Shown here piece after piece: positions 13,472-46,482 of a DNA stretch of 64,000 nucleotides (within the stretch, counting starts at the first letter, position 1; the number at the start of each line of letters is the position of its first letter). The DNA comes from Phapecoctavirus DIJ07P1. The stretch lies in sequence record OZ035743.1, one strand, 5' to 3'. Below the pieces are notes generated by a model, which searched no databases, was not told where the DNA came from, and saw nothing but the letters and a program-made list of their open reading frames with translations. The translations under genes were made by a program, and so were the position numbers.

Positions 13472-13478
13472 ACTTCAC

Positions 13479-17881: not shown

Positions 17882-18110
17882 TTCTTCCTCCTAATGTTAT
17901 CTCCGGTTTGTATATACGAAGAATTATAGCATTTTCATTTTCTTTGTCAACCCATTCTTCATAATCAGGCCATACATGAATCTCTACTCTACTTACAATA
18001 TCTTCCATTCGCACAGTCCCAATGAAATACTCTTTGAGACTGCGCATAATGAAAGCTTCTCTCTCGCGCCAATAATTTTCTATGACTTGAGAGGCAAGCT
18101 CGTCGATCAT
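17862..18110 (-). CDS. Hypothetical protein
   Basis: 82-aa ORF. Confidence 0.5.
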   Translation of the reverse strand: MIDELASQVIENYWREREAFIMRSLKEYFIGTVRMEDIVSRVEIHVWPDYEEWVDKENENAIILRIYKPEITLGGRSVKLRN

Positions 18111-18901: not shown

Positions 18902-18902
18902 A

Positions 18903-19181
18903 TTATTTCTCCTTCTTAAGTGTAATATTGGTAACTTCTAAATCTACTTCCACCATATTTGTATCTGGCGGGATGCAATGAGTATAGCCTCGTTGTGCTA
19001 GTGATCCATTAATACAGATCGCACTGTTTGTGGAATTTTTAATGAACACCAAGTTACGGTAGGTATCCAACCCTGCGTCTTCATAGGCATCATAATACAT
19101 GAATGTGGCCCCTATGCCAAGATCTTCGAAAGCAATAGGTAAATCCTGACTTTTTTCTTCTTGAATATTGAATCTAAACAC
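18903..19181 (-). CDS. Small protein, paralogue B (immediately upstream of vWA gene)
   Basis: Paralogous to 17612..17881; start set at GTG after GGAGG RBS (ORF-track ATG at 19247 would overlap upstream gene by 74 nt). Confidence 0.55.
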   Translation of the reverse strand: MFRFNIQEEKSQDLPIAFEDLGIGATFMYYDAYEDAGLDTYRNLVFIKNSTNSAICINGSLAQRGYTHCIPPDTNMVEVDLEVTNITLKKEK

Positions 19182-19737
19182 GCATACCTCCTCTACCAAT
19201 TTTGAAGCCCAAATCGTAAGCTTCCTTAGTGATCTTTTGTAACTCACTTATAGGAAGTGTTACAAGAGGATCATCTTCTTCAATTTCCATCTTGTCATCT
19301 TCTGTTTCAATGAGAGTATTATGCACTTTGTGATAAGGGTTGTCAACACGTTTAAACTTATTCTTTTCTGTGCTGAAAAAACAATCTGGATCTTCTTCAC
19401 CATCACCCCAACCTTGGTTAGGATCTCCGTCAGATTGTTCTGTAGGGATTTCACCTGTAAAATACTCTTCCAGCACCATAGCGATACCGTCCCTTGGATT
19501 TGAGGAATGCATCAAATCACAAACCTTACTCCAATCCATAGCCCATTCGAATCGTTCGCGAACACCATTTTCATCCTCCTTTCCAGAGAAAACACAACCA
19601 TAACTATCATAGTTGCCATACATCTCTTCAATAACAACACCGTCCTTCAAAAGAAAGAGGTAGCAAGGTGATCCGTCGAAAGAAGTAGAAAGGGCAGCTT
19701 TGCCCGATTCTTTGCACAAAAAACTAAAACAACCCAT
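19174..19737 (-). CDS. Hypothetical acidic protein
   Basis: 187-aa ORF. Confidence 0.6.
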   Translation of the reverse strand: MGCFSFLCKESGKAALSTSFDGSPCYLFLLKDGVVIEEMYGNYDSYGCVFSGKEDENGVRERFEWAMDWSKVCDLMHSSNPRDGIAMVLEEYFTGEIPTEQSDGDPNQGWGDGEEDPDCFFSTEKNKFKRVDNPYHKVHNTLIETEDDKMEIEEDDPLVTLPISELQKITKEAYDLGFKIGRGGMRV

Positions 19738-19940
19738 TACAAACCCTCCTTCAGATTATCAAGAGCTACAGTGGTTTCACAAAATTCTCCATAAGCTTTA
19801 TGATGTTCCAGAAAAGCTTCGGGTCCACCCCAGTCATTATCTTGTGTATTCCAACCATCAATAAAAGCATCTTCAATGATTGTGATCAGTTCTTGTCGGG
19901 TTAACTGGATAATATTAGGATCGTTATCGTAGTTAAACAT
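19737..19940 (-). CDS. Hypothetical protein
   Basis: 67-aa ORF. Confidence 0.55.
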   Translation of the reverse strand: MFNYDNDPNIIQLTRQELITIIEDAFIDGWNTQDNDWGGPEAFLEHHKAYGEFCETTVALDNLKEGL

Positions 19941-20106
19941 CTTCTTCCTCCTCTAAAATATGAAACCCGTAATTACAATAGTCCTGAAAGGTTTCGTGCG
20001 CAAGATCTTCTATATCCTCTTGAGACATATCATCTTCAATTTCGATATCCACAACCTCATTGCATCCACACCAAGCAGTTTCAATATTCACTCGTAATAT
20101 TTTCAT
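19936..20106 (-). CDS. Hypothetical small protein (below ORF-track cutoff)
   Basis: about 56-aa ORF read manually (MKILRVNIETAWCGCNEVVD...); ATG overlaps upstream stop. Confidence 0.35.
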
Positions 20107-20303
20107 TACTCCTCCTCCTCATTGAAGTCAATATCTGCAAGGAGTTGGAATTTACGGAAGTTACGACAACCTTCATAAATATAACAATCACGACAAACTG
20201 CTAGAACACTTGGGGGATATATGCCTCCCATCGGTGCGAATCGTTTTTCGTCATCATAACGGACACCAATGTCTTCATCAATTATATAGATACGGATTCT
20301 CAT
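20106..20303 (-). CDS. Hypothetical Cys-containing small protein
   Basis: 65-aa ORF. Confidence 0.5.
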   Translation of the reverse strand: MRIRIYIIDEDIGVRYDDEKRFAPMGGIYPPSVLAVCRDCYIYEGCRNFRKFQLLADIDFNEEEE

Positions 20304-21412
20304 TTACCAAGCCCTCGTTTCACAGCAGCTACCATCCCGTCTTCCAAAGATTGAACTTCATTAATATAATCAACACGAGCAGCACGGGCTTCCGTATTGA
20401 TGCGGTTAGTTTCTTCCAACATCTTAACCAAGTTTTCCTGATCGTGACGCAGAGTTTCAATATCCAACACTTGACGGTTAGCCAGTGCTGCTGCTTCGAT
20501 CTGATTCTGTGTGGCAAGATCGCTACCCAGTTTAATTGCCAGGTTAAATTCATCAAGAACGTTATTCTGCGTCTCTGCTGCTTTCATTTGACGTAAGCTC
20601 TCGATATACATTGAGAAGTTAGCAGAGTAAGCAGGAATAACATTATTTACTATGTTACGCGCAGATCGCATTAAGCTTGCAGAAACTTTTTGCATACCTT
20701 GTACACGCGGTCCCATTTGGACACACAGTAGGCGCAATGCTTTTAAATCTGCAATACGAATCTCCAGAAGATCCAAAGTATCTCGGATCACTTGTCGCTG
20801 TTCTACTGCATCTTCTGGAAGAGCAGCCAAAGCTTGTTCTTCTTTTTCATAGGTTGCTGTTAGAAGCTGCATATCTCGGTTCAAACTTGCAGCATATTGT
20901 CCAATAGCTTGATGTAGCTTTTCAAGATATACCAAGGAATCTTCTTCTTTGCGAATATCCATTTGAAGGTTTTTTACCAACTCTTCAATACGGTTATTAA
21001 CATTATCAAACTCCCCAAACAGATCTTCTTTCATACCCATAACTTTTTTAATGAGTTTAGTAATACCCTTGCTTTGTTTAATAGAGTTTGGATCAAGTTG
21101 TTTTGCCTGTTTAATCAAAGCTGTGAGTCGTTCACTCATCTGATCGCCTTGATTACTACGTTGATGTTTTAATACCTCGGCATTCAAGGAACGCAAGGTT
21201 GTTCCTGCCTCTGCTCCAATCTCTTCGATCTCCTGTCGGGTCATAGAAGGCAAAACTGGAACTTCTTGCGGTGCCGCTGGTGCATAAACAGGACTGGCAT
21301 CTAACACGCTTGGAGCGAATACAGATTTACTTGCATCTGTTGTTGCAGCAAATACGCTCATTTCAGGTTTCTTCTGACAGCCAGTAGCTGCTTTTAAAAA
21401 TGGACTTGTCAT
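20300..21412 (-). CDS. Coiled-coil protein, possibly TelA-like
   Basis: 370 aa, helical/coiled-coil composition; TelA assignment rests only on size, composition and Ter context. Confidence 0.6.
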   Translation of the reverse strand: MTSPFLKAATGCQKKPEMSVFAATTDASKSVFAPSVLDASPVYAPAAPQEVPVLPSMTRQEIEEIGAEAGTTLRSLNAEVLKHQRSNQGDQMSERLTALIKQAKQLDPNSIKQSKGITKLIKKVMGMKEDLFGEFDNVNNRIEELVKNLQMDIRKEEDSLVYLEKLHQAIGQYAASLNRDMQLLTATYEKEEQALAALPEDAVEQRQVIRDTLDLLEIRIADLKALRLLCVQMGPRVQGMQKVSASLMRSARNIVNNVIPAYSANFSMYIESLRQMKAAETQNNVLDEFNLAIKLGSDLATQNQIEAAALANRQVLDIETLRHDQENLVKMLEETNRINTEARAARVDYINEVQSLEDGMVAAVKRGLGK

Positions 21413-21999
21413 TCTTCATTCTCCTCTTCTGCATCTCTTATATATGGTGAAACACCGTACTCTTTAGCTACTTTAACCCAATCGTCCCATTTATACAACC
21501 ATAATTTTCCTTCGGTCCCTTCTTTATCTGATTTCAACCACATATTAGGTTGCTTACCTGGGTACATGCGATTAGGTTTACGATTATAACCTCTAACACA
21601 TCTTGTCGCAAACCTATCTACCAGAACAAGAACATATTTATATTCGTGGTTCAACGGCTCTTTGGAAGTGGCTTTAGGATTAGCCCCTAACTCTGCTGCC
21701 AGTTTTTGCCAATGAGCACCGTGTCTACTAAACTTACCCATACAACCATCAATAGCATGAGCAATTTCGTGCTTCATTGTATCCACGATCATATCTCTTG
21801 TAGAGTTCTTATGCAAGTGCCAATTTACAACAACAATTTTATCTCGGTAGTTGCACCAACCGAAAGAGTTATTCACTTTGTTTCTAACACAAGCTTTATA
21901 TCCTGCTTCACGTAACATGTTGTAGTAAACAGGAAAATCTTCTTTTATTTCCTGCATCACTTCCCACCACAAGAGTTGCAAGTCTCTCTCGGTATACAT
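21409..21999 (-). CDS. SprT-like zinc metalloprotease
   Basis: 196 aa; MKHEIAHAIDG HExxH motif. Confidence 0.65.
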   Translation of the reverse strand: MYTERDLQLLWWEVMQEIKEDFPVYYNMLREAGYKACVRNKVNNSFGWCNYRDKIVVVNWHLHKNSTRDMIVDTMKHEIAHAIDGCMGKFSRHGAHWQKLAAELGANPKATSKEPLNHEYKYVLVLVDRFATRCVRGYNRKPNRMYPGKQPNMWLKSDKEGTEGKLWLYKWDDWVKVAKEYGVSPYIRDAEEENEE

Positions 22000-22002
22000 A
22001 AC

Positions 22003-22596
22003 TTACACCTTAAAAGTGAAATGCGTGGTCGTGGTTTCAAAATCAGGACCAGATAAACGTGCACTGAAATCTGAAATATTTGTAATTAAAAAGCTTTTAT
22101 GCATACCTAACACAGCTACGCTTTCAATATCTTCTACTAACATTTCAATCATGTTAGAAACATGGCTGAACGTAGAGTTTTGTTTTTTGATGGTGTAGAA
22201 AGAAAGATTCCCACCTGCTGTATAAGATACCTCTTCAAAATCTTTAATGGTATATTGTGTGCCATCAGTAAAGAAAATGGTAGCTTTATTAGTAGCACGT
22301 TTCTTGTTTTTTGGTCCTTTTTTACGTTTACTGCGAGTAGGCAAACCGTTTGGGAACACCATAGCTACAAATTCTTCAGCAGAAACCTCCTTACCGAAAT
22401 CATAACCATAAGAAACAGCGTCTATAAACTCGTCATCTTCATTTTTAAAATAATGGAAATAGGGCCAATTTGAGAGATTATCGAGCATCTTATGCTCATC
22501 CACAGCAGAGAACGTATCCCTCAAAGCACGTGTGATTTGCAAAGCATTAGGCAAACTTTTAACACCTGTAATGGAAGTACGAATAGAAATTGTCAT
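22003..22596 (-). CDS. Hypothetical protein
   Basis: 197-aa ORF. Confidence 0.6.
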   Translation of the reverse strand: MTISIRTSITGVKSLPNALQITRALRDTFSAVDEHKMLDNLSNWPYFHYFKNEDDEFIDAVSYGYDFGKEVSAEEFVAMVFPNGLPTRSKRKKGPKNKKRATNKATIFFTDGTQYTIKDFEEVSYTAGGNLSFYTIKKQNSTFSHVSNMIEMLVEDIESVAVLGMHKSFLITNISDFSARLSGPDFETTTTHFTFKV

Positions 22597-22610
22597 TGTT
22601 TTTCTCCTTA

Positions 22611-23048
22611 TTAACGTCGCTTGCTACGAGATGAACTCTTTTTACTTAAAGGGCTATTGTAAGATTTACGAGTTGTATAGCTACTATTTGTTTTAAAAGT
22701 TTGTCTCGGCTTTTCATAAGTTTTTATCTCTTGTTTAGGCTTACTATAAAAATTAGTTTTCGGTTTAGGTGTATTATAATGTTTATTAATAATCGTTCTG
22801 TTATCGTTATAATCCCCACTGCTACGATTACTACCGCCACTCATCATATGCCCTAACAACATACCTGTAGCAAACTCACCAACACCGTTACTACTAGAAC
22901 CGCCACCATTGTTGATAATAGTTGTATCTCCGTCAGATCCTTGTTGAGCGTATTGTTGAGGAGGTTGTTGGTATTGTGCAGGATTTGTTTCATCCTCGCA
23001 AGCTGTTAAAAAGATACAACCAATTAAAATCAGGGCTAGTTTTTTCAT
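22611..23048 (-). CDS. Lipoprotein, Gly/Ser/Gln-rich
   Basis: Start set at MKKLALILIGCIFLTAC (lipobox LTAC); low-complexity mature region. Confidence 0.6.
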   Translation of the reverse strand: MKKLALILIGCIFLTACEDETNPAQYQQPPQQYAQQGSDGDTTIINNGGGSSSNGVGEFATGMLLGHMMSGGSNRSSGDYNDNRTIINKHYNTPKPKTNFYSKPKQEIKTYEKPRQTFKTNSSYTTRKSYNSPLSKKSSSRSKRR

Positions 23049-23231
23049 ATTTGCTTTCCTCGTTTTGGCTATTAATACATCTGTGTTTGAAATCTCCAGA
23101 GAAGCAATAAAGTTGCTCTCCATCTCGGTATAAACTCACTTTACTGCCGTTGATTACGCTTGTCAATACAAAAATTACAACAAACAACCCTATTGCAAAA
23201 CAAATATTTTCAAACACAACCAACAAGTATT

Positions 23232-23582
23232 TCATTTTAAAAATACCTCATCATCAGTTTCATTATCCCAGAAGAACAAGTCCCAACCATTCGGATCATT
23301 CCATTTAGCTGCTGGAGAAGTCCATATTTGCTCGATATCAATATTCAAAACTTCACCGTTTCGTTTTGAAACAGCTTTAGTTAATTCCCAACGGGATACA
23401 GGCTCCACTTCCCCTGAACCACTCCCACAACAAGCTACCACATTAGGAGGCAAATTAATTGGATCTTTGGTCACGATCATAACGCTTACCCCAGGGTAAA
23501 CTTTTGAAAGATAATCTAAAACGTAATCCACATCACCAGATAAATCCCAAACAAGTTCTTGAATTTCATCAAAATTATTCAT
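23232..23582 (-). CDS. Hypothetical protein
   Basis: 116-aa ORF. Confidence 0.6.
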   Translation of the reverse strand: MNNFDEIQELVWDLSGDVDYVLDYLSKVYPGVSVMIVTKDPINLPPNVVACCGSGSGEVEPVSRWELTKAVSKRNGEVLNIDIEQIWTSPAAKWNDPNGWDLFFWDNETDDEVFLK

Positions 23583-23602
23583 AAGTCTCTCCTATAAAAT
23601 AG

Positions 23603-23618
23603 CCTCCCGAAGGAGGCT
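23603..23618 (-). terminator. Hairpin downstream of terC
   Basis: gcctcc-cgaa-ggaggc stem-loop, A/T-rich tail on minus strand. Confidence 0.5.
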
Positions 23619-23624
23619 CATCTA

Positions 23625-24599
23625 TTAAACAGAAGCTTCTTCTTTTTCAGGGAAGATAAAGCTTGCAATAACACCAAGAGATAATGTGCCTAGAACAATC
23701 ATCAGACTTACGTTAGGGGAAATATCATGCGGGAGGAATGACCACTTGGCATGAAGTGTTTCACCGAACGGGTGATACATAAGTTTAGCACCAACAAACA
23801 CCAGAACCACAGCAACAGCTTTCTCTAAGTGAACCAGATATTTCACAGCTACACTTAACACAAAGAAAAGTGCACGTAAACCAAGAACAGCCATCAGCAT
23901 TGCAGAATAAACTAGCAGAGGTTCTTGTGTCACACCGATCACAGCCGGAACTGAATCAAAAGAGAAGACAATATCTGTAAGCTCAATAACAAACACACAA
24001 AGAAGAGCAGGAGTTGCATATTTAATACCATTCTTAATGGTGATGAACTTTTCACCATCCAGTGCATTGTGCACAGGCAGAACTTTACCTACTAAACGAA
24101 CAGCCCAATGTTTAGAGTAATCAATATCCTCTTCTTCGTCACCACCTTTGATGATAGCCACGGCAGACCAAGCTACAATCAAACCGAACAACACTTGGAC
24201 CGACCAATGAAGGTTAAACAAAGCGGTCCCTGCTGCAACAAAAATACCTCGGAAGACAATGGCTCCTGCAATCCCCCAAAGTAGAATCTTATGTTGGAGA
24301 TGTGTGCTCTTAATTCCAAAGCTTGCAAAAATTGCCATGAACACCATTAGGTTATCTACAGAAAGACTCTTTTCCAACACATAGCCACTTAGGAAAAGCG
24401 CGGCAAACTCTTTACCATGTTCTACCCAAATGAATGCGTAATACCCTAAAGCTAAAGCAATCCAAAAAACAGACCAAAGCAAAGCAGATTTAATTCCAAT
24501 TTCTTTATTCTCTTTATGACCAAAGAAATCGATACCAATAGACAATGCCAAAATACCAACTAAAACAACTACATCAATAATTGGGAAACCGAGTTGCAT
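23625..24599 (-). CDS. terC: TerC-family integral membrane protein
   Basis: 324 aa, multiple hydrophobic segments; EKSLSVDN matches TerC signature. Confidence 0.8.
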   Translation of the reverse strand: MQLGFPIIDVVVLVGILALSIGIDFFGHKENKEIGIKSALLWSVFWIALALGYYAFIWVEHGKEFAALFLSGYVLEKSLSVDNLMVFMAIFASFGIKSTHLQHKILLWGIAGAIVFRGIFVAAGTALFNLHWSVQVLFGLIVAWSAVAIIKGGDEEEDIDYSKHWAVRLVGKVLPVHNALDGEKFITIKNGIKYATPALLCVFVIELTDIVFSFDSVPAVIGVTQEPLLVYSAMLMAVLGLRALFFVLSVAVKYLVHLEKAVAVVLVFVGAKLMYHPFGETLHAKWSFLPHDISPNVSLMIVLGTLSLGVIASFIFPEKEEASV

Positions 24600-24616
24600 T
24601 CTTTTCTCCTCTCTCT

Positions 24617-24677
24617 GCGGGGGAACTATTCCCCCGCTTCATGTGATATATCTTACTCTTTTTAAGAACTATGTCAA
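24617..24677 (-). promoter_or_regulatory. Promoter-leader cassette driving terC (TTGACA-16-TAAGAT plus 5' leader hairpin)
   Basis: Minus strand reads TTGACA-tagttcttaaaaagag-TAAGAT-atatcacatgaa-GCGGGGGAATAGTTCCCCCGC-agagagaggagaaaag-ATG; same architecture as the 46.5-52.7 kb array. Confidence 0.7.
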
Positions 24678-24680
24678 CAC

Positions 24681-24902
24681 TTATTTTGTTGAATGAGAGG
24701 AAAAGATTCCTCGTAATACCGCCAGAATAAACGAAACACAAACCACGGTCCAGAAGGTTACTGGGACAGTGATATCTGCATGACCCATAACTTCAGCAAC
24801 ATAGTTGTAAGCCAGCAACAGTAACCAAGCTGGAATCAAACTAAGCATAAAAGCAATAACAAAAAAGCTTACCACTGCAACAATACCTGCAAAAACACCC
24901 AT
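24681..24902 (-). CDS. Small membrane protein
   Basis: 73 aa, two hydrophobic segments. Confidence 0.5.
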   Translation of the reverse strand: MGVFAGIVAVVSFFVIAFMLSLIPAWLLLLAYNYVAEVMGHADITVPVTFWTVVCVSFILAVLRGIFSSHSTK

Positions 24903-24914
24903 ACTAATCTCCTC

Positions 24915-25388
24915 TTAAAGTTTATAAATAGTCACATCGTGACCTGTTTTTACTAAAGTTTCTTCAATCATCACTTGGATGATAGCCCAATTACCTCCAG
25001 CATATCCAGCGCCAATCATAGGTAAGCCGATCTTACATTTTTGGTCACGGAGAAGCAAATCATTAGCCATAGCTATTAGTGCATCGTAAAGTGCATCATA
25101 GTCCAACTGACGACCTTTAGCATTGTATCCGTAACGGTATTGCCCGTATAGATTATATACCAAAGGGTCTGATTGTTCGTCTGGCACCCCTAAACTAAAA
25201 GAACCTAACTTACTTTGATCACCAGCCATTGTGTCTAAATCTGCCGCATATGCATAAGGGAATGCTCGTTTAATTTGCGGAGCAATTCCTGCTCCCATAT
25301 TACACATACAATTGCAACAATGAGCAATAACAGTTACTTCACCTGCTTTAGCGGCATCAATAAGATTACCTGTTTTCATTTTAAGCAT
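24915..25388 (-). CDS. Macro-domain protein (ADP-ribose binding/processing)
   Basis: GNLIDAAKAGEVTVIAHCCNCMCNMGAGIA and IGLPMIGAGYAGG blocks resemble macro-domain motifs; start set at Met after AAGGAG RBS. Confidence 0.65.
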   Translation of the reverse strand: MLKMKTGNLIDAAKAGEVTVIAHCCNCMCNMGAGIAPQIKRAFPYAYAADLDTMAGDQSKLGSFSLGVPDEQSDPLVYNLYGQYRYGYNAKGRQLDYDALYDALIAMANDLLLRDQKCKIGLPMIGAGYAGGNWAIIQVMIEETLVKTGHDVTIYKL

Positions 25389-25401
25389 TTTTAGCTCCTT
25401 A

Positions 25402-26229
25402 TTACAGAATGTGTTGTTTTGTGTAACGATCCAAGAATTCAAAGTTTTCAGCATACTTTGAAATTCGGTTGTAACCTTCTCCCAAACATCCGAAGAAAAG
25501 TTGCTCTACATAGTAGTGTGGCAATTGGCTAAGAATGATTTTGAAGTCTTCGTGATTTTGGCCCATAAGATACTTAATAGGACGAACAAGACACTGTGCA
25601 TCACGTTCTTCATTAATCATTTTAACAAACGCTTCTGGTGTATTGATGTAGTTAAAATTCAGTTTAGCTTCAGTATCTGCTTGATTACCTTCATATTTTG
25701 CAAAATACAAGAAGTAAACATCATTTTTAACTTGATTTTCATCAAGAATCTCAATCAGTTTGTCTTCATGAGTTCCGGTGATATTTACATCATCAATGAA
25801 CACAAGCTTCTTATCACCCCAGAATTCTTTGTTGCAGTAGAATGTATCCCCATCAATAAGTTTCTTACGACTAGCTTTATCCAAGAAACCATAATCGTTG
25901 ATATAGCTAACTTTACGATGAATAATATCCAGTTCTGCTGAACGACCTTGATCATATTGTGCTTGCAACATATTAAAGTAATTAATAAAATGATCTGTCA
26001 TCATTGTTGCAGCATTGTGCACATGGTTATAAGGAGAAGGGATGATAACAAATTGTTCCCCAATATGTTTCATTGCCACTTGAGCAAAAAACTGAAGTGC
26101 CAATTCTTTACCCATACGACGCGCAGCTTGGTTACTACCAAATTTCAATTTTGAATAGTCTTTGATATCAAAAGTAGCAGTTTCCAGGTCATCAAATTTA
26201 TTTGCAAAAATTTGAGTTTGATTACGCAT
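25402..26229 (-). CDS. Phosphoribosyltransferase-like (PRTase) protein
   Basis: 275 aa; KLVFIDDVNITGTHEDKL resembles PRPP-binding loop. Confidence 0.55.
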   Translation of the reverse strand: MRNQTQIFANKFDDLETATFDIKDYSKLKFGSNQAARRMGKELALQFFAQVAMKHIGEQFVIIPSPYNHVHNAATMMTDHFINYFNMLQAQYDQGRSAELDIIHRKVSYINDYGFLDKASRKKLIDGDTFYCNKEFWGDKKLVFIDDVNITGTHEDKLIEILDENQVKNDVYFLYFAKYEGNQADTEAKLNFNYINTPEAFVKMINEERDAQCLVRPIKYLMGQNHEDFKIILSQLPHYYVEQLFFGCLGEGYNRISKYAENFEFLDRYTKQHIL

Positions 26230-26899
26230 TTACAATTTCTCCTCTTTTAAGTTTCTCTAGTAAGTCGTTAGGGTTCTTAATATGACAGAAGTTAATCCCT
26301 ATGTCAACACATTTACCATCAAATTCTTCGCTGTCCCCAACATGTAAAATCTCTTCAGCCTTCAAAGGAATGCTTGAATATGTGGCGGTCCTAACAAAGA
26401 ATCTAGGATCTGGTTTACATAACAGATGTTCGTCTGAAAAATGCATAAATTCAAAACAATTCCAACTGTCGAACATACAAGCACGACGCAAAATATCCCC
26501 AGATATAAAATTAGTATTGCTTTTAATACTAAGATCATATTTACCAGACAAGTATAGCAAACAAACTGGCAAATCTAAAGCGATATGTGGAGGAAATTTA
26601 AGAAACCATTGCTCACACTCAAAACGCATTTGTGCAGATTCTACAGGGGTTAAACCTATCTTTCTTCCCAACATATTCCATGCATATGCTACACCTTCTG
26701 CACACCCATTTAGTGCAGCATTATCCATAATTTCTTTGGCATCTTTATATGCTTCTTTTGCCGCACGTTCAGACATTCTACCATATGTAGCAATAGTGTG
26801 CGTACGTGCATCTGCATAGTTTTGATTGGCAGAAATAAGAGTATTCCATACATCAAAAGAAATATGTTTTATTGTCATACTAGGCCCACCACGCATCAA
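26222..26899 (-). CDS. HAD-like hydrolase (non-canonical motif I)
   Basis: ISFDVWNTLI (DxWxT in place of DxDxT) and ILHVGDSEEFDG (motif IV-like); true start may be Met at 26878. Confidence 0.55.
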   Translation of the reverse strand: MMRGGPSMTIKHISFDVWNTLISANQNYADARTHTIATYGRMSERAAKEAYKDAKEIMDNAALNGCAEGVAYAWNMLGRKIGLTPVESAQMRFECEQWFLKFPPHIALDLPVCLLYLSGKYDLSIKSNTNFISGDILRRACMFDSWNCFEFMHFSDEHLLCKPDPRFFVRTATYSSIPLKAEEILHVGDSEEFDGKCVDIGINFCHIKNPNDLLEKLKRGEIVNA

Positions 26900-27485
26900 G
26901 ATTTAAGTTACTGTCTACCACAACTTGTTCTATGTGGTAGCCTTTTATCTGTATCCCACTGTTCAAGAGCATATCATACGCTTCATTGAAACGCAACTTA
27001 TCTTCTGCGGAATATAAGCGAGCATTATAAAATCGGTAATCAATTTCTTCAGCATTAGAAGAAATACGGAAGAAGTTTGTTTCTACTTCGGGATCACTTG
27101 CTGAAGTCTTAATGTGAACTTCTCCATAATTTTCTTTACTTAGATCCATGAAAAGAACACAGGCAACATGTTTAAACATTCGTTCCAGTTTGTAACGAAC
27201 AACATTGAAACCTGCATTCTCAAGTTTTTCTACACACTGCAACATTAAAGTAGTGTCGAGATCGCTTTGATACTTTGTTAACATACGATCACGTTGAGAC
27301 TTTGTATCCCGATGTAAATCAATTGTTGTGCATTTGGCACCAATAATCTTAGCTGCTTTCATCAACTCTTCAGAACTAACGTTAGATAAAGTAAGATGAA
27401 AATGGGCTTTCCACACTTTTTTAGCAGGGACACCAAAAGATTTATCCCCACTATTCGGCATGTTGACTACTACACTATGTTGCAT
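26880..27485 (-). CDS. Hypothetical protein
   Basis: 201 aa; one HxTx element (HLTL) but no second, so 2H phosphoesterase not supported. Confidence 0.55.
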   Translation of the reverse strand: MQHSVVVNMPNSGDKSFGVPAKKVWKAHFHLTLSNVSSEELMKAAKIIGAKCTTIDLHRDTKSQRDRMLTKYQSDLDTTLMLQCVEKLENAGFNVVRYKLERMFKHVACVLFMDLSKENYGEVHIKTSASDPEVETNFFRISSNAEEIDYRFYNARLYSAEDKLRFNEAYDMLLNSGIQIKGYHIEQVVVDSNLNLDAWWA

Positions 27486-41162: not shown

Positions 41163-41519
41163 ATGAAAAAACTAATCTTAGCCACATTGCTGGCTACCGT
41201 AAGCTTCACCACTTACGCTCAAAAATTTGTAGCAGTTAAAACAGATATTGGTAAAGATGTTGTGATCACAGGCAACAAGTTTTACTATACACCTGGGAAT
41301 GGTGTTCTAGAAGAGTGTAAAGATGTTGAGGCATATACGGGAAAAGAAGATAACACGGAACGTCCTTTTTATTCGATTATAGCTACTTGCAAAAATGAAA
41401 TAGTAGCTATTAAACAATACAAAGATGCCCCTGGAGGAGAATACTTATTAGTCAAGAATATTAAGAGTGAAAAAACTGCAAAGTTTACAGTAATTATTTT
41501 AAAAGGAGAAACGTTCTAA
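41163..41519 (+). CDS. Secreted protein with signal peptide
   Basis: MKKLILATLLATVSFTTYA signal; GGAGGG RBS. Confidence 0.6.
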   Translation: MKKLILATLLATVSFTTYAQKFVAVKTDIGKDVVITGNKFYYTPGNGVLEECKDVEAYTGKEDNTERPFYSIIATCKNEIVAIKQYKDAPGGEYLLVKNIKSEKTAKFTVIILKGETF

Positions 41520-42658
41520 TGAAATACACTATTTTTGGAGATGTAGCTGTTGTAAATAAGGAATATGGCGTTGAAGCTAATAAACTTCCTGCTGGAGTTT
41601 GGGTTGTCAACTGCGATCCGCACGGTAACTACTCTTTAGTGCGTGGTGAAAGTTTCTCTCTTCCGAACACTCTTTATGGGGAAACTAAAGATCGCGCCGC
41701 ACATGTTATTAAAACATTTGCTCGTCGTAGTAAAGAAGGTAAAAATACTGGGGTGTTACTGACAGGGACAAAAGGCAGTGGTAAGACGATGTTAGCTAAA
41801 CTAATTAGCATGTCTCTAATGTCCACAGAAGGTTTAGGTATTCCAACCATTTTGGTTACACAGCCTTACACAGATGCTGGCTTCTTAGAATTTATGAGTA
41901 AAATTACAGATCGTGCTGTTGTTTTATTTGACGAATTTGATAAAGTGTACGCTAAGAAAGAAGATCAGGAAGCACTGTTGACCTTGTTGGATGGAACAGG
42001 AAGTGGGAATAAACTTTACATCCTCACTAAAAATAGTGGTTATATCTCGGAATATTTTGTAAACCGTCCTAGTCGTATCTACTACAGTTTCAATTACGAT
42101 AAACTGTCTAGTGAAACTATGTTAGATTACTTGGATAAGAACTTGGTAAATAAAAAGCACGTAGATAACTTCCAACGTTTATGGGATGTTAGCACAGAGT
42201 TGTCTTTCGATGTTATTCAAGGCATTGTAGAAGAATTGAATTTCTATCCAAAAATGACTTTTAAAGAATGTCTTGAAATGATGGGTATTTCTTTAGGGAA
42301 CGATGCTAAATGGAATGTGGCTTCTATCGTAGCTAATGGCAAAACCTTGAAGGTGAATTGGATCAATAACTGGCACGACTTCACCCCTACTAAGTTTTTG
42401 TCGGGTGCTTGTTCCCTGAACATCTATCTACAAAGTTTGAAAGATGATGAAGTGGAAGCAATGGAAACCAACAGTTATGTTATCCTGGATGAAGATGGTG
42501 ATCCACATATTGATCTATGTGCAACGGCTGATGGTCTAACTTGTGATCTGATTGAAGGTGGTAAGATTCTGGTTATGAGCACTACACCAGGAAACACTTT
42601 GCGAGTGGTGCTGGAGCCTGTAACACAACGTTCCACTACACTTGGTAGCGTGTTCTAA
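41519..42658 (+). CDS. AAA+ ATPase
   Basis: 379 aa; Walker A GTKGSGKT, Walker B VVLFDEFD. Confidence 0.75.
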   Translation: MKYTIFGDVAVVNKEYGVEANKLPAGVWVVNCDPHGNYSLVRGESFSLPNTLYGETKDRAAHVIKTFARRSKEGKNTGVLLTGTKGSGKTMLAKLISMSLMSTEGLGIPTILVTQPYTDAGFLEFMSKITDRAVVLFDEFDKVYAKKEDQEALLTLLDGTGSGNKLYILTKNSGYISEYFVNRPSRIYYSFNYDKLSSETMLDYLDKNLVNKKHVDNFQRLWDVSTELSFDVIQGIVEELNFYPKMTFKECLEMMGISLGNDAKWNVASIVANGKTLKVNWINNWHDFTPTKFLSGACSLNIYLQSLKDDEVEAMETNSYVILDEDGDPHIDLCATADGLTCDLIEGGKILVMSTTPGNTLRVVLEPVTQRSTTLGSVF

Positions 42659-42663
42659 TAAAG

Positions 42664-42681
42664 ATGCCCCGCAAGGGGCAT
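42664..42681 (+). terminator. Hairpin terminator
   Basis: atgccccgcaaggggcat stem-loop followed by TTGTT. Confidence 0.55.
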
Positions 42682-42746
42682 TTGTTATGGAGGGATTTTA
42701 GTTATTCTTTTGTTGTAGGCTCGCACTAATAGCTAAAGGGGGAGGT

Positions 42747-44207
42747 GTGCCAAAAATAGTCACTTGGGAACAATATAAAACAGATATAAAACAAGCTTAT
42801 CAAGGTAAGTCTTGGACTGTTGTAGATTATATTGAGCCGTGGAACGGCAATAAAACTAAACTTAGATGCATCTGTGCTCTGCATGGAGAATGGAAAACAA
42901 CAAGCATAAATACCGCTAAACTAGGGAGGGGTTGTCCAGAATGCGGTAGGGAGATTATAAGTAAAGCAGTATCTATAAACAAATCAAAAACCTGGGAGCA
43001 ATATAAAGAAGAAGTGCAAACCACTTACAATCAGGCAGGTAAGTTTTGGACTGTTACAGGATGGCACGGAGAATGGAAAGGATGGAATACTAAACTGGTT
43101 TGTTGTTGTGCTTTACATGGGGAGTGGAGGTCTACTTCTATATCTTCTGCGAAAAACGGGAGTGGATGCAGGAAGTGTATGGGAGAAGCAAACAGAGAAA
43201 GAACATCGATTGCATGGGAGAAACATAAAGAAGAAGTAGAAGAAGCTTATAAAGAAAAACCCTGGATTGTTAGAGGCTATGTGGAACCGTGGAACGGTTC
43301 CCGCACTAAGTTGATTTGTGAGTGTAAGGTTCATGGTCAATGGTGCACTACCACTGTAAACAGTGCTAAACAAGGGACTGGATGCTACAGTTGTCAAAGA
43401 GAAATGACGAAACAAAGGAATACAATGGAGGATAAACAACATGTTGAAGATTTTATAAAAGCTTGTCCTGATAATGTAGAGCGTAAATATTATCGTAGCG
43501 ATAGAGTAGATAGATTAGGTCGTCAGGTTTACTGGATTGTAGAATGTCCTATATGTGCAGAGGATGATTATTGTAAAGAAGGCTTATGCGATAATAAATT
43601 TGAGATGAAGATGAGTCATTTGAAAAGGGGTGGCCTTCCTTGCCGTTGTTCTAAATATTATCATTACACTCCTGAACAATGGGCCTACCGTATGACCAAA
43701 GCTTGCCAGGAACGAGGGGATCAATTTATAGGATTCATTGATAAGGTAAGCAATAACAGCAAGTTTAAATATCTATGTAGGGAGCATGGAGAGCAAACGA
43801 TCACACCTACCGATTATCTCAATGGGAAAGGTTGTCCAGGCTGTAAGAACAGAAATATGCAAGAATTTTACATCAATATTATTCTTGATGAGTACGGAGA
43901 AGACACGGGAGCTTACAAGTTGGGGATTGCAAAGGACAGTGATATCAGGATCAAAGGGCAGAATGCAAACAACAATTACTCTATGCGCCGTATAGCATTG
44001 TTCGATCTGCCGTCCTACCAAGCTTGCAGGGCGTTAGAGAGTAAGCTAAAGTCTAAGACTGATCAGATTCTACCGTCTATTGGCTGTGTAGAACGCTTGC
44101 ACATGAAAGATGGTCATAGTGAAACCTTCCTGCGCGAGGATTTGGCTATCGTCTTAAGTGCTATCAACCAAGCAGGTGGAATAATGAGAGAGGAGGAAAC
44201 ATGTTAG
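42747..44207 (+). CDS. Zinc-ribbon tandem-repeat protein with C-terminal GIY-YIG-like region
   Basis: 486 aa; four tandem ~75-aa repeats (W..YK...W.V..Y.EPWNG..TKL.C.C..HGEW.TTS.N.AK.G.GC..C); C-terminal EFYINIIL...GAYKLGIA. Confidence 0.7.
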   Translation: MPKIVTWEQYKTDIKQAYQGKSWTVVDYIEPWNGNKTKLRCICALHGEWKTTSINTAKLGRGCPECGREIISKAVSINKSKTWEQYKEEVQTTYNQAGKFWTVTGWHGEWKGWNTKLVCCCALHGEWRSTSISSAKNGSGCRKCMGEANRERTSIAWEKHKEEVEEAYKEKPWIVRGYVEPWNGSRTKLICECKVHGQWCTTTVNSAKQGTGCYSCQREMTKQRNTMEDKQHVEDFIKACPDNVERKYYRSDRVDRLGRQVYWIVECPICAEDDYCKEGLCDNKFEMKMSHLKRGGLPCRCSKYYHYTPEQWAYRMTKACQERGDQFIGFIDKVSNNSKFKYLCREHGEQTITPTDYLNGKGCPGCKNRNMQEFYINIILDEYGEDTGAYKLGIAKDSDIRIKGQNANNNYSMRRIALFDLPSYQACRALESKLKSKTDQILPSIGCVERLHMKDGHSETFLREDLAIVLSAINQAGGIMREEETC

Positions 44208-44566
44208 TTGACGTTCAAATTATGCGCAACGAAAGAATGGACTTCTTTGAAGCAGTAGAGAAACATCTGATCAGATGGGACTATGAATTTGTTCCTGCTG
44301 GATGTGGACCAGTAGAGCATTTAGCGGAAGACGACGATGTATACATGATCATTCGTCAAGTGTACCAGACAGACCAGTGTGAAGAAACTCCCGAACTGAT
44401 TTTGTTTGAGTGTAAAGATCTTGCAAAATATTTTGACTATGGCGGAAAAGAGGGTCATAATCTCTCCAGATACAATAAACGTCTACTTATCTTAGACTAC
44501 ATGCGGAACAACAAACACAAACTCATCGACGCAGACGCAGTTTATGGCTACTGGTGGATGGACTAA
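44201..44566 (+). CDS. Hypothetical protein
   Basis: 121-aa ORF. Confidence 0.55.
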   Translation: MLVDVQIMRNERMDFFEAVEKHLIRWDYEFVPAGCGPVEHLAEDDDVYMIIRQVYQTDQCEETPELILFECKDLAKYFDYGGKEGHNLSRYNKRLLILDYMRNNKHKLIDADAVYGYWWMD

Positions 44567-44579
44567 CAAAGGAGAAACT

Positions 44580-44759
44580 ATGGCACGTTTAGCAGATCAT
44601 GAAATCTTTAAACCTATTCTGAACCACTATGATGAACTTAAAGCAGTGTTGGATTGTTATAGAGAGGATGAAGAACGTTTGGAAGTCAATCTTAAGATAG
44701 TTCTGATGAAAGCTTTTCAAGACGGGCAAGCTAAAGTTTTAGAAGGCATGAAAAAATGA
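44580..44759 (+). CDS. Hypothetical small protein
   Basis: Start set at Met after GGAGAAA RBS. Confidence 0.45.
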   Translation: MARLADHEIFKPILNHYDELKAVLDCYREDEERLEVNLKIVLMKAFQDGQAKVLEGMKK

Positions 44760-45298
44760 GAATAACTGATGAATATGTATTCTTCTTTTCACATAAAGAT
44801 GTGTTTAGTAATTGGTATATTGCACCCTTTACAGAAACTGAACCAGGTTACAATGAGACTTTCTGTTGTGTTGAGCAATATATGATGTGGCGTAAGGCTT
44901 TGCTGTTCAAGGATCATGCGATTGCAGCAGCTATCCTTGATCACTCAACTATACGTGACAACGAGAGGAAACAAGCATACTACAAACGTATGGGTCGAGC
45001 GGTATCTGGTTTTAATAATGATATGTGGGAAGAGAACCGTGAGCGTATTGTTATGCGAGGCTTATGCTTGAAATATGTACAGAATCCAGATTTGTATGCA
45101 GACTTACACCTTTACCAATACAAAACGTTTGTTGAAGCAAGTCCTTACGATAAGGTTTACGGTATTGGAATGGGAATGTATGAACCAGGGGTGCTAAACC
45201 CTGCTACCTGGAAAGGGCAGAATCTTTTAGGCAAATATCATAATAAACTGATCGAAATACTTTTCCCAGACAAAATACCGCAAAGACGATATTTGTGA
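44756..45298 (+). CDS. NADAR-domain (YbiA-like, DUF1768) protein
   Basis: 180 aa; VFFFSHKDVFSNWY...CCVEQYMMWRKALLF parallels E. coli YbiA INFYS...FSNF...SEHYFQAQKF. Confidence 0.65.
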   Translation: MRITDEYVFFFSHKDVFSNWYIAPFTETEPGYNETFCCVEQYMMWRKALLFKDHAIAAAILDHSTIRDNERKQAYYKRMGRAVSGFNNDMWEENRERIVMRGLCLKYVQNPDLYADLHLYQYKTFVEASPYDKVYGIGMGMYEPGVLNPATWKGQNLLGKYHNKLIEILFPDKIPQRRYL

Positions 45299-45353
45299 TA
45301 TTTTAACTTTTTTCATTTTTAGAACAAAGGTGTCACTTTGTAGCACAGAAATA

Positions 45354-45380
45354 AGGCTCCTACAGCACCGTAGAGAGCCT
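45354..45380 (+). terminator. Rho-independent terminator
   Basis: aggctc-ctacagcaccgtagag-agcct hairpin followed by gttattttgt. Confidence 0.65.
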
Positions 45381-45540
45381 GTTATTTTGTCCTATACAAA
45401 CCCTTGTCTTTTTCAGTTTGCATCACTAGGATTCGATCTGAGTGGGTTCCTGAAGGTTTACCAATAAGATTAAAGGTTATATCAAATTCCCACTATCTTT
45501 TATCTCAAAAATCCCTCAAATTATTTAAACTTTTTAAGAA

Positions 45541-45717
45541 TTTACAAAAATGAAAGTACAAAAGCAAAATTTAAAGTTTAGGAAAATTATCTTAAAATGT
45601 TAGATACAAAACAAAACTCAAAAGTCAAGGAAAATTTTAAAAATTTTGCGCGCCCACAGTATTTAAAGTTTTTTTGCTTTTACAAAAATGAAAGTACAAA
45701 AGCAAAATTTAAAGTTT
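45541..45717. repeat. 40-bp direct repeat pair in AT-rich intergenic region
   Basis: tttacaaaaatgaaagtacaaaagcaaaatttaaagttta at 45541..45580 and 45678..45717. Confidence 0.8.
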
Positions 45718-45740
45718 ACAAAAATTTTTATGCAGGTGAA

Positions 45741-45846
45741 AATGAGAAGAGTTCTCATATGGAAATGCAAATGATAATGATTCGCATTTAAGTTTATAAA
45801 TGAGATTGATTCTTATTTAATAAGGTAAATGACAATCATTCTCATT
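45741..45846. promoter_or_regulatory. Four tandem ~19-bp palindromes resembling the Fur box
   Basis: aatgagaagagttctcat; aatgataatgattcgcatt; aatgagattgattcttatt; aatgacaatcattctcatt at ~28-bp spacing; last copy matches GATAATGATAATCATTATC at 14/16 aligned positions. Confidence 0.45.
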
Positions 45847-46106
45847 TAGAGAATGACGCGCAGGGGCGGTGTTTGTCTCGCGCTCCCGTGTCCCCTCGCC
45901 ATGTAATAAGAATAACAGATCCAGCCAGGAAAGCAAGCGATTATTTTATCTTTACATTTCTTTACAAATATATAGCACCCAGCCTACCGGCGATCAACCT
46001 TCCAACCAGTGCCCCCTGGTATGTTAGCCCCGCCTTTACGCCGTGGGGTGGCGCTTCCTCTTCTGTATGTAAAACAGTATAAGCCCGATCCCTGGGCTTG
46101 TCAAGA

Positions 46107-46373
46107 TTATTTTTTGTTTTCTTGCCAGGATAGGACACCTAACCAAAAATACATATCGCCCCGCGCCCCTGGTGGTATCTTGCTTTCCCCGCCGCCACTG
46201 CAAGCCCATAGATAACCATTTGCGAACGTATCAAAATGATCTATCTCTTCCACCTTATGATCGCCCAGGTTGAGAACGGTTTCAACCTTTAAGCCCGTTG
46301 CGCTTGCTACCTGGTGCACCGTGCCGCCTTGCCAGCCCAATGAGTGCATAAGGTGTAATGTAGTATTTGTCAT
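46107..46373 (-). CDS. Hypothetical protein in GC-rich island
   Basis: 88-aa ORF; competing ORFs on both strands; weak RBS. Confidence 0.35.
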   Translation of the reverse strand: MTNTTLHLMHSLGWQGGTVHQVASATGLKVETVLNLGDHKVEEIDHFDTFANGYLWACSGGGESKIPPGARGDMYFWLGVLSWQENKK

Positions 46374-46482
46374 GATATCGCCCTTTCTTTGTTGTGCGCC
46401 CTGGTTGGCGCGGTAGAAAGATAATAGCCCTTTTCTTTATATATAGCAAGCAAAAAGAAAATAAAAAAGATTGAAAAATGGT

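What the first reader, a model, noticed from the sequence alone, without database searches (positions are those of the whole stretch)
44756..45298. NADAR-domain protein as candidate counter-defence against ADP-ribosylation
The N-terminus (VFFFSHKDVFSNWY...VEQYMMWRKALLF) parallels E. coli YbiA/NADAR. NADAR enzymes are reported to hydrolyse ADP-ribose from guanine bases, so this gene, with the macro-domain gene at 24915..25388, may let the phage reverse ADP-ribosylation by host toxins.
Basis: partly seen in the sequence, partly recalled or inferred. Interest (0 to 1): 0.6.

Follow-up and report, generated by a model that had tools for sequence, protein, structure and literature searches.

The report
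Phage NADAR enzyme against DarT1 defence

Summary
The ORF at 44756..45298 (+) is real and encodes a 180-aa NADAR protein. It scores 122 bits against Pfam PF08719 (cut-off 35). The AlphaFold model has pLDDT 95.3, and its only significant PDB neighbours are two NADAR structures.

All residues known to matter for guanine de-ADP-ribosylation are present: E40, K47, K77 and E127.

The window is a Phapecoctavirus (Stephanstirmvirinae). The gene is the syntenic, single-copy counterpart (57% identity) of bas60_0111. That is the only NADAR gene in phage Bas60, whose NADAR (AdfN-Bas60) was shown to neutralise DarT1 and rescue phages on DarTG1 hosts, but not on DarTG2 hosts (Johannesman et al., Nat Commun 2025).

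The macro gene is real but lies on the minus strand, 19 kb away. It is SCO6735-like and keeps the essential Gln. It sits in a conserved macro–PRTase–HAD trio inside a Ter-like module, so its role as a partner is only possible.

New here:
- A sharply bounded swapped segment (codons 34–90) among Phapecoctavirus alleles.
- A clade-specific variable loop beside K77.

Verdict: new member of a known kind, low to moderate interest.

The parts
44756..45298 (+). NADAR-domain gene, 180 aa; counterpart of AdfN-Bas60. Catalytic codons: E40 at 44873-44875, K47 at 44894-44896, K77 at 44984-44986, E127 at 45134-45136.
44742..44759 (+). Translation start region. GAAGG lies 9 nt upstream of the ATG, and the ATG overlaps the TGA of the upstream 71-aa ORF (ATGA), which suggests translational coupling.
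   Evidence: Read directly from the sequence and ORF coordinates. The coupling is an inference.
44855..45025 (+). Swapped internal segment (codons 34-90). It is 69% nt identical to the phAPEC8 allele with synonymous sites saturated, while codons 1-33 are 100% and codons 91-149 are 98% identical. It contains the clade-specific variable loop (about residues 62-75) beside K77.
45354..45391 (+). Terminator-like hairpin (45354-45380) followed by a U-rich tract, closing the + strand gene run that ends with the NADAR gene.
   Evidence: Fold gives -18.1 kcal/mol, z = -4.96. The sequence is identical in phAPEC8 and differs by one base, just after the hairpin, in nepoznato. phAPEC8 annotates a terminator at the equivalent position.
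41519..44759 (+). Co-oriented upstream genes that define the synteny with Bas60: AAA ATPase (41519-42658), CapR-repeat endonuclease (42747-44207), and two small ORFs of unknown function (44201-44566, 44544-44759). The two small ORFs are absent between the endonuclease and the NADAR gene in Bas60.
24915..25388 (-). Macrodomain gene (157 aa from the ATG at 25388; the longest ORF runs to 25454). It is SCO6735-like. It is a candidate hydrolase for thymidine-linked ADP-ribose, and is not shown to work with the NADAR.
25402..26899 (-). ComF-like PRTase (25402-26229) and HAD hydrolase (26222-26899). They are tightly packed with the macro gene, and the trio is conserved in Bas60.

Best explanation
The gene encodes a stand-alone phage NADAR ADP-ribosylglycohydrolase of the AdfN kind (anti-DarT factor NADAR).

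Proposed mechanism. In a host that carries DarTG1, infection frees the DarT1 toxin, which ADP-ribosylates guanine in single-stranded phage DNA and blocks replication. The phage enzyme cleaves the bond between ADP-ribose and guanine, releases ADP-ribose and restores the DNA, so replication proceeds. E40 and K47 on the first core helix, together with E127, form the catalytic centre. K77 and the adjacent clade-specific loop probably contact the DNA.

What is shown here: NADAR family membership, the fold, conservation of the catalytic residues, and orthology and synteny with AdfN-Bas60.
What comes from the literature: the activity of AdfN-Bas60 against DarT1.
What is inferred: that this allele has the same activity and role, and that it is expressed in time to act.
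For: - Family and fold: Pfam NADAR 122 bits; 8BAU E=1.2e-12; pLDDT 95.3; the only significant structural neighbours are NADARs.
- Catalytic residues: E40 and K47 are invariant in 53 homologues and align with T4 AdfN E36/K43 and PnNADAR E43/K50. Mutation of those residues abolishes function.
- K77 aligns with E. coli C7 NADAR K115 / PnNADAR K75, which is needed in vivo against DarT1.
- E127 aligns with PnNADAR E125.
- Orthology: 57% identity to bas60_0111; conserved gene order; one NADAR ORF per genome.
- AdfN-Bas60 neutralises DarT1 without phage, rescues three unrelated phages on DarTG1 hosts and is inactive against DarTG2.
- All NADAR subtypes tested in vitro remove guanosine-linked ADP-ribose.
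- Every Phapecoctavirus record found carries the gene (70 records), and 56 Justusliebigvirus-type records carry the Bas60 form.
- DarT1-NADAR systems exist in E. coli strains such as C7 and an ETEC strain.
Against: - No experiment exists on this allele, and 43% of residues differ from the tested protein.
- In vitro activity does not guarantee protection in cells. YbiA and T4 AdfN remove guanosine-linked ADP-ribose in vitro but do not rescue E. coli from DarT1.
- The protein lacks the N-terminal DNA-binding extension of DarG1-type NADARs.
- It has Glu where DarT1-linked NADARs use Asp.
- Its nearest cellular relatives stand alone. None has an ADP-ribosyltransferase neighbour, and some sit beside cobalamin-related genes.
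- Expression timing is unknown.
- I could not confirm from the paper's supplement that AdfN-Bas60 is bas60_0111, because the file is not held. The identification rests on that being the only NADAR ORF in Bas60.
Confidence: 0.75

Rival explanations
1. The enzyme mainly degrades soluble ADP-ribose derivatives, such as signals or toxic metabolites made by NAD+-based host immunity or during RNA repair, rather than ADP-ribose attached to DNA.
For: Iyer et al. [quoted passage not shown] A homologue on a 182-kb phage-like metagenomic contig overlaps a NUDIX gene. The macro, PRTase and HAD genes in the same genome suggest nucleotide-metabolite chemistry.
Against: That proposal predates the experiments. 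Every phage NADAR tested since acts on guanine-ADP-ribosylated DNA and counters DarTG1, including the counterpart of this gene. In this window the NADAR gene is not adjacent to any Nudix, SLOG or RNA-repair gene.
Confidence: 0.1
2. It is a YbiA-type housekeeping N-glycosidase that clears riboflavin-pathway intermediates. This is the reading behind the public labels 'GTP cyclohydrolase II' and 'COG3236'.
For: NCBIfam TIGR02464 (riboflavin biosynthesis intermediates N-glycosidase) scores 114.9 bits against a cut-off of 73.7. The third active-site residue is Glu, as in YbiA. Two chromosomal homologues lie beside cobalamin and CobT-like genes.
Against: Direct similarity to YbiA is weak (phmmer E=0.069). 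The tested counterpart was placed with non-YbiA bacterial NADARs. No riboflavin genes lie nearby. YbiA itself also removes guanosine-linked ADP-ribose in vitro, so a hit to the domain model does not separate the two functions. No GTP cyclohydrolase II domain is present.
Confidence: 0.04
3. Its main target is something other than DarT1. It could reverse guanosine or cytidine ADP-ribosylation of DNA or RNA by other transferases (pierisin/ScARP-like toxins or undiscovered defences), or it could block another defence by binding rather than catalysis, as reported for one phage NADAR and Retron-Eco1.
For: NADARs also reverse guanosine ADP-ribosylation of RNA and cytidine ADP-ribosylation. Johannesman et al. 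note that a different phage NADAR acts without catalysis, citing Carabias 2024. The swapped segment and variable loop would fit adaptation to varied partners.
Against: This extends the main explanation rather than excluding it. The catalytic residues are strictly conserved, which argues for an enzymatic role. The Carabias paper could not be read here, so I cannot say whether this protein resembles that NADAR.
Confidence: 0.08

Closest known systems
AdfN-Bas60 (NADAR of Escherichia phage PaulScherrer/Bas60, locus bas60_0111, Justusliebigvirus); Johannesman, Carlson & LeRoux, Nat Commun 2025
   Same: Same phage subfamily (Stephanstirmvirinae) and same position, after an AAA ATPase and a CapR-repeat endonuclease. 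57% identity over 172 residues. Same length class with no N-terminal extension, same E/K/K/E residue set, and the same clade-specific loop before the KRxGR motif.
   Different: 43% of residues differ. Two extra small ORFs separate the gene from the endonuclease here. The loop sequence differs (DHSTIRDNERKQ here, TGDLRYTGEKEQ in Bas60). This allele is untested.
AdfN-T4 (T4 gp30.3)
   Same: A stand-alone phage NADAR that counters DarTG1. The Glu and Lys on the first core helix are conserved, E36/K43 in T4 against E40/K47 here.
   Different: Only 18% identity in the alignment. T4-type proteins have His where this protein has E127. AdfN-T4 does not neutralise DarT1 outside T-even infection, whereas the Bas60 type does.
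DarG1, the DarT1-associated NADAR antitoxin (E. coli C7; Geobacter lovleyi, PDB 8BAT)
   Same: Same fold and the same chemistry, removal of ADP-ribose from guanine. Equivalents of E88, K95 and K115 are present.
   Different: No adjacent darT1 gene. No N-terminal extension forming the proposed DNA groove. Glu of the YbiA/PnNADAR type rather than the Asp (D171) used by DarT1-linked NADARs.
Phytophthora nicotianae NADAR (PDB 8BAU) and E. coli YbiA (PDB 2B3W)
   Same: These are the closest solved structures: 8BAU at E=1.7e-9 and TM 0.79, 2B3W at E=1.3e-6. The ADP-ribose-contacting residues align.
   Different: 28% and 23% identity respectively. YbiA is a chromosomal gene in a LexA-controlled operon with a reported riboflavin-intermediate N-glycosidase role, and it does not protect against DarT1 in cells.
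For the macro gene: SCO6735 (PDB 5E3B), the DarG2 macrodomain, and chimallivirus AdfM
   Same: SCO6735 is the best PDB match (E=6e-13). The equivalents of H24, N27, Q85 and G128 are kept as H45, N48, Q105 and G150. SCO6735 removes thymidine-linked ADP-ribose from DNA and neutralises DarT. AdfM shows that phage macrodomains can counter DarTG2.
   Different: K34 and K89 of SCO6735, which are important for DNA substrates, are Ala and Gly here. The protein has Gln rather than the Lys of DarG and AdfM. It is embedded in a macro-PRTase-HAD trio within a Ter-like module. It belongs to the very widespread phrog_335 / T4 Tk.4 family, found in 2937 phage records. It is untested.

Membership tests
NADAR superfamily (Pfam PF08719) | Sequence score above the curated family threshold | tested here: met
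   122.1 bits against a cut-off of 35.1, E=3.4e-35, covering profile positions 3-154 of 163.
NADAR superfamily (Pfam PF08719) | YbiA-like alpha+beta fold | tested here: met
   AlphaFold2 pLDDT 95.3, pTM 0.89. Foldseek against the PDB finds only 8BAU (TM 0.79) and 2B3W at E<0.001.
NADAR superfamily (Pfam PF08719) | Catalytic Glu and Lys seven residues apart on the first core helix, plus an acidic residue at the PnNADAR E125 position | tested here: met
   E40, K47 and E127 are invariant in 53 homologues and align with PnNADAR E43/K50/E125 and T4 E36/K43.
NADAR superfamily (Pfam PF08719) | Hydrolysis of guanine-linked ADP-ribose in vitro | not testable with these tools
   Needs purified protein and ADP-ribosylated oligonucleotide. 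All four E. coli-associated subtypes tested elsewhere were active.
AdfN (phage anti-DarT factor NADAR) | Phage-encoded stand-alone NADAR with no linked toxin gene | tested here: met
   The window is a lytic Phapecoctavirus. The neighbouring genes are an ATPase, an endonuclease and small ORFs with no ADP-ribosyltransferase or defence-model hits. No DNA-level copy exists in 5,426 E. coli genomes.
AdfN (phage anti-DarT factor NADAR) | Orthology to an experimentally validated AdfN | tested here: met
   57% identity to bas60_0111, conserved gene order, and one NADAR ORF in each genome. That bas60_0111 is the tested AdfN-Bas60 is inferred, because the supplement is not held.
AdfN (phage anti-DarT factor NADAR) | Restores phage growth on DarTG1 hosts or neutralises DarT1, and depends on the catalytic residues | not testable with these tools
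   Requires plaque and toxicity assays. Shown for AdfN-T4, AdfN-Bas32 and AdfN-Bas60.
DarG1 (DarT1-linked NADAR antitoxin) | Operon partner darT1 | tested here: not met
   No ADP-ribosyltransferase or PADLOC DarT hit among the neighbours.
DarG1 (DarT1-linked NADAR antitoxin) | N-terminal extension of the core fold, and Asp at the D171 position | tested here: not met
   The catalytic Glu is residue 40 here against residue 88 in E. coli C7 NADAR, so the extension is absent. The aligned third residue is Glu, of the YbiA/PnNADAR type.
YbiA-type riboflavin-intermediate N-glycosidase | Close relationship to YbiA, or linkage or fusion to ribA/ribD | tested here: not met
   phmmer against YbiA gives E=0.069. 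There is no GTP cyclohydrolase II domain or rib gene nearby. TIGR02464 does pass its cut-off, but that model works at domain level. The tested counterpart was placed outside the YbiA group.
SCO6735/DarG-like (ALC1-like class) macrodomain, for the gene at 24915..25388 (-) | Macro fold with conserved Asn, Gln (or Lys) and Gly active-site positions | tested here: met
   5E3B E=6e-13; N48, Q105 and G150 align with N27, Q85 and G128. Only sequence was tested; no structure was predicted.
SCO6735/DarG-like (ALC1-like class) macrodomain, for the gene at 24915..25388 (-) | DNA-substrate features (SCO6735 K34 and K89) and activity on thymidine-linked ADP-ribose | tested here: inconclusive
   K34 and K89 are replaced by A55 and G109. 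Activity cannot be tested here.

The most novel reading that the evidence does not exclude
The phage may carry a two-enzyme kit that covers both DarT chemistries: the NADAR for guanine-linked ADP-ribose (DarT1) and the Gln-type, SCO6735-like macrodomain for thymidine-linked ADP-ribose (DarT2). In addition, the sharply bounded swapped segment (codons 34-90) and the variable basic loop beside K77 may mark a specificity module that phapecoctaviruses exchange in an arms race with differing DarT1 systems or DNA contexts.
Probability: 0.2. Interest if true: 0.45.

Novelty: new member of a known kind. Interest (0 to 1): 0.25.

Why it matters
It corrects a widespread misannotation. Public records call this gene 'hypothetical protein' or 'GTP cyclohydrolase II'.

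It extends a validated anti-DarTG1 counter-defence from phi92-like phages to the whole Phapecoctavirus genus, which includes many candidate therapeutic phages for APEC, STEC and ESBL-producing E. coli. It predicts that these phages are insensitive to DarTG1.

The allelic segment swap gives a natural experiment on which part of a NADAR sets in-cell specificity. That question is open, because some NADARs are active in vitro yet fail to protect cells.

It does not reveal a new mechanism.

Tried and rejected
- DarG1 antitoxin membership: rejected. There is no darT1 neighbour and no N-terminal extension, and the third residue is Glu rather than Asp.
- YbiA or GTP cyclohydrolase II reading: rejected as the primary function.
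- RNA features: no Rfam family at gathering score in the whole window, only a chance-level miRNA hit in the downstream gap, and no tRNA.
- Origin in the host: blastn of the gene against 5,426 complete E. coli genomes found nothing.
- Toxin-antitoxin origin: five bacterial or metagenomic homologue contexts showed no ADP-ribosyltransferase neighbour.
- Confirming the accession of AdfN-Bas60: the paper's supplements are not held. I replaced this with an HMM scan of the whole Bas60 genome.
- Retron-Eco1 paper (Carabias 2024): not held, so that rival rests on a one-line citation.
- Scripts: the first dN/dS script failed on a file path. The ungapped identity profile in the second half lost register at an indel and was ignored; only the per-codon-block figures are used.
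- Not done: I did not predict or fold-search the macro structure, and I ran no further search on it, because it is secondary to the finding.
- Not done: prevalence of DarT1 in E. coli genomes could not be computed, because I had no DarT1 sequence to query with.

Full report
**Observation.** The ORF at 44756..45298 on the + strand is present as described: ATG to TGA, 180 aa, with both quoted peptides. Its ATG overlaps the stop codon of the upstream 71-aa ORF (ATGA), and GAAGG lies 9 nt upstream. A stable hairpin at 45354-45380 followed by a U-rich tract lies 56 nt after the stop (-18.1 kcal/mol, z = -4.96). That sequence is identical in phAPEC8 and differs by one base, just after the hairpin, in nepoznato, and phAPEC8's authors annotated it as a terminator. 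The gene is therefore the last one of a + strand run that starts near 39.1 kb.

**Family and fold.** Pfam NADAR scores 122.1 bits against a cut-off of 35.1, E=3.4e-35. PHROG 1017 (function unknown) matches at E=4e-51. The only PDB sequence match is the Phytophthora nicotianae NADAR, 8BAU, at E=1.2e-12. An AlphaFold2 model built on 53 homologues has mean pLDDT 95.3. Foldseek against the PDB returns 8BAU (E=1.7e-9, TM 0.79) and E. coli YbiA 2B3W (E=1.3e-6), and nothing else below E=1.

**Functional residues.**
- E40 and K47 are invariant in the 53-sequence alignment. They align with PnNADAR E43/K50, E. coli C7 NADAR E88/K95 and T4 AdfN E36/K43. Mutating these residues abolishes function in DarG1 and in AdfN-T4.
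- K77 is also invariant. It aligns with PnNADAR K75 and E. coli C7 K115. That lysine is dispensable for catalysis but needed to counter DarT1 in cells.
- E127, in the invariant VEASP motif, aligns with PnNADAR E125. The protein is therefore of the Glu type, not the His type of T4-like AdfN nor the Asp type of DarT1-linked NADARs.
- It lacks the N-terminal extension of DarG1-type NADARs.

**What the window is.** The region is 99.8% identical to Escherichia phages vB_EcoM-Ro121lw and phAPEC8_ev052, genus Phapecoctavirus, subfamily Stephanstirmvirinae. The NADAR gene is 100% identical at nucleotide level in at least seven records. It is found in 70 phage records, where it is labelled 'hypothetical protein', 'GTP cyclohydrolase II' or 'COG3236'. 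The latter labels come from domain-level models such as TIGR02464, which this protein passes. No GTP cyclohydrolase domain is present.

**Link to published experiments.** Johannesman, Carlson and LeRoux (bioRxiv 2024; Nat Commun 2025) showed three things.
- T4 gp30.3 (AdfN) removes DarT1-made ADP-ribose from DNA.
- Two unrelated phage NADARs, AdfN-Bas32 and AdfN-Bas60, neutralise DarT1 in uninfected E. coli.
- Those two also restore plaquing of RB69, T5 and Bas25 on DarTG1 hosts, but give no help against DarTG2.

Bas60-62 are phi92-like phages, now placed in Justusliebigvirus, the sister genus within the same subfamily. An HMM built from the homologue alignment finds exactly one NADAR ORF in the complete Bas60 genome, bas60_0111, and exactly one in this window. 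The two proteins are 57% identical over 172 residues. Both lie after an AAA ATPase (64% identical) and a CapR-repeat endonuclease (35% identical). The phapecoctavirus has two extra small ORFs in between. The window gene is therefore the positional counterpart of a validated anti-DarTG1 factor.

**Mechanism I consider most likely (confidence 0.75).** In a DarTG1 host, infection frees DarT1, which ADP-ribosylates guanine in single-stranded phage DNA. The phage NADAR hydrolyses that linkage and restores replication. Family, fold, residues and orthology are shown here. The activity is taken from the literature on the counterpart gene. Its transfer to this allele, and early expression, are inferred.

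**Reasons for caution.**
- In vitro activity does not guarantee protection in cells. YbiA and AdfN-T4 fail to rescue E. coli from DarT1.
- 43% of residues differ from the tested protein.
- The closest cellular relatives stand alone, with no transferase neighbour. They sit in prophage-like Burkholderia loci, in a phage-like metagenomic contig next to a NUDIX gene, or beside cobalamin genes in myxobacterial-type genomes.

**Rivals.**
- Degradation of soluble ADP-ribose derivatives, as proposed from gene context by Iyer et al. 2022: 0.10.
- YbiA-like riboflavin housekeeping: 0.04. Direct similarity to YbiA is weak and the tested counterpart groups outside the YbiA clade.
- Other targets or a non-catalytic role: 0.08. 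NADARs also reverse guanosine ADP-ribosylation of RNA and cytidine ADP-ribosylation. One phage NADAR is reported to act without catalysis against Retron-Eco1, but I could not read that paper.

**New detail in the gene.** Compared with the phAPEC8 and nepoznato alleles, the flanking genes are 97.6-98.9% identical in DNA and 100% identical in protein. The NADAR gene is only 87-89% identical in DNA and 90% in protein. The divergence is confined to one block:

| Codons | nt identity to the phAPEC8 allele |
|---|---|
| 1-33 | 100% |
| 34-90 | 69% (synonymous sites saturated; dN 0.22) |
| 91-149 | 98% |

This pattern indicates exchange of an internal segment with a much more distant allele. It is not uniform fast evolution. 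The block spans the catalytic helix, whose key residues are unchanged, and the K77 helix. It also contains an insertion (about residues 62-75) that most distant homologues lack. That insertion is among the more variable stretches in close relatives and is usually basic. I infer that it may contribute to DNA or partner recognition. That is not shown.

**The macro gene.** It exists at 24915..25388, or to 25454 for the longest ORF, but on the minus strand.
- Pfam support is marginal (23 against 22 bits). PDB macrodomains match well: SCO6735 5E3B at E=6e-13, BT1257, the Thermus DarG macrodomain and TARG1 at about 2e-6.
- At the position of the catalytic Lys of DarG (K80) and TARG1 (K84) it has Gln (Q105), as SCO6735 does (Q85). 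The equivalents of H24, N27 and G128 are conserved. K34 and K89, which are important for DNA substrates in SCO6735, are Ala and Gly.
- SCO6735 removes thymidine-linked ADP-ribose from DNA and neutralises DarT. A chimallivirus macrodomain, AdfM, counters DarTG2.
- However, the gene is packed with a ComF-like PRTase and a HAD hydrolase. The block also contains a TerC/Alx membrane protein, TelA, a TerF-like vWA protein and a SprT-like protein.
- The macro-PRTase-HAD trio is conserved in Bas60, at 49% and 64% identity for the macro and PRTase genes. Iyer et al. read PRTase plus HAD in phage Ter systems as making a nucleoside-like signal.
- The macro family is very widespread in phages, with 2937 records including T4 Tk.4.

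I therefore treat the macro gene as a possible but unproven partner.

**Novelty and score.** The kind (AdfN) and its mechanism are published, and the closest relative in the sister genus has been tested. This is a new, untested member with a corrected annotation, plus two small new observations: the swapped segment and the variable loop. Interest is 0.25. The most novel reading still open is a two-enzyme kit against both DarT chemistries, with the swapped segment acting as a specificity module. I give that probability 0.2 and interest 0.45 if true.

Noticed in passing
window 45299-46480: About 1.2 kb after the NADAR gene has no + strand gene. It holds an AT-rich stretch (22-28% GC) with direct repeats (72 nt x2 at 45517 and 45655; a 32-nt unit x3) and an inverted repeat with 23-nt arms (45797-45819 / 45826-45848). 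A GC-richer part follows with an 88-aa minus-strand ORF (46107..46373), which some records annotate. It could be an origin or a regulatory hub. No RNA family matches.
   Followed up: partly
window 18107-27485 (- strand): A fairly complete Ter-like module in a lytic phage: TerF-like vWA protein, TelA, SprT-like protein, TerC/Alx membrane protein, a 73-aa membrane protein, the macrodomain gene, a ComF-like PRTase and a HAD hydrolase. The anaerobic ribonucleotide reductase gene follows. The macro-PRTase-HAD trio is conserved in Bas60.
   Followed up: partly
window 44855-45025: Within the NADAR gene, codons 34-90 are 69% identical in DNA to the phAPEC8 allele, while the rest of the gene and the flanking genes are 94-100% identical. 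This is a sharply bounded swapped segment. At least three loop variants (residues 62-72) exist among close relatives.
   Followed up: partly
window 42747-44207: The 486-aa 'endonuclease' upstream has five CapR-domain repeats. The phAPEC8 and nepoznato versions are shorter (1185 nt), so repeat number appears to vary. It is only 35% identical to the Bas60 gene, although the ATPase beside it is 64% identical.
   Followed up: no
window 44201-44759: Two small ORFs (121 aa, phrog_24465; 71 aa, phrog_22330; both of unknown function) lie between the endonuclease and the NADAR gene in phapecoctaviruses. They are missing at that position in Bas60 and PHB05.
   Followed up: no
public records matching window 44756-45298: The gene is widely mislabelled 'GTP cyclohydrolase II'. 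Several near-identical phapecoctavirus or justusliebigvirus genomes are deposited as Campylobacter, Acinetobacter, Pseudomonas, Serratia or Klebsiella phages, so the host labels look doubtful.
   Followed up: no
window 12527-14426 (- strand): Two paralogous glycosyltransferase genes (phrog_7162) sit next to the primase/helicase and DNA polymerase genes. Bas60 annotates the equivalents as disaccharide synthases. Whether they modify DNA or a surface glycan is unknown.
   Followed up: no
L021:4001-4991; L011 and L023 around 5001 / 4001: A NADAR homologue on a 182-kb phage-like metagenomic contig overlaps a NUDIX gene. Chromosomal homologues in myxobacterial-type genomes lie beside cobalamin transport and CobT-like genes. 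None has an ADP-ribosyltransferase neighbour.
   Followed up: partly
L018:19501-20313 (Bas60): Bas60 also encodes a sirtuin-family protein and, elsewhere, a nicotinamide phosphoribosyltransferase and a PRPP synthetase. The subfamily therefore carries several NAD+/ADP-ribose genes besides the NADAR and macro genes. I did not check whether this window's phage has them outside the 64 kb.
   Followed up: no
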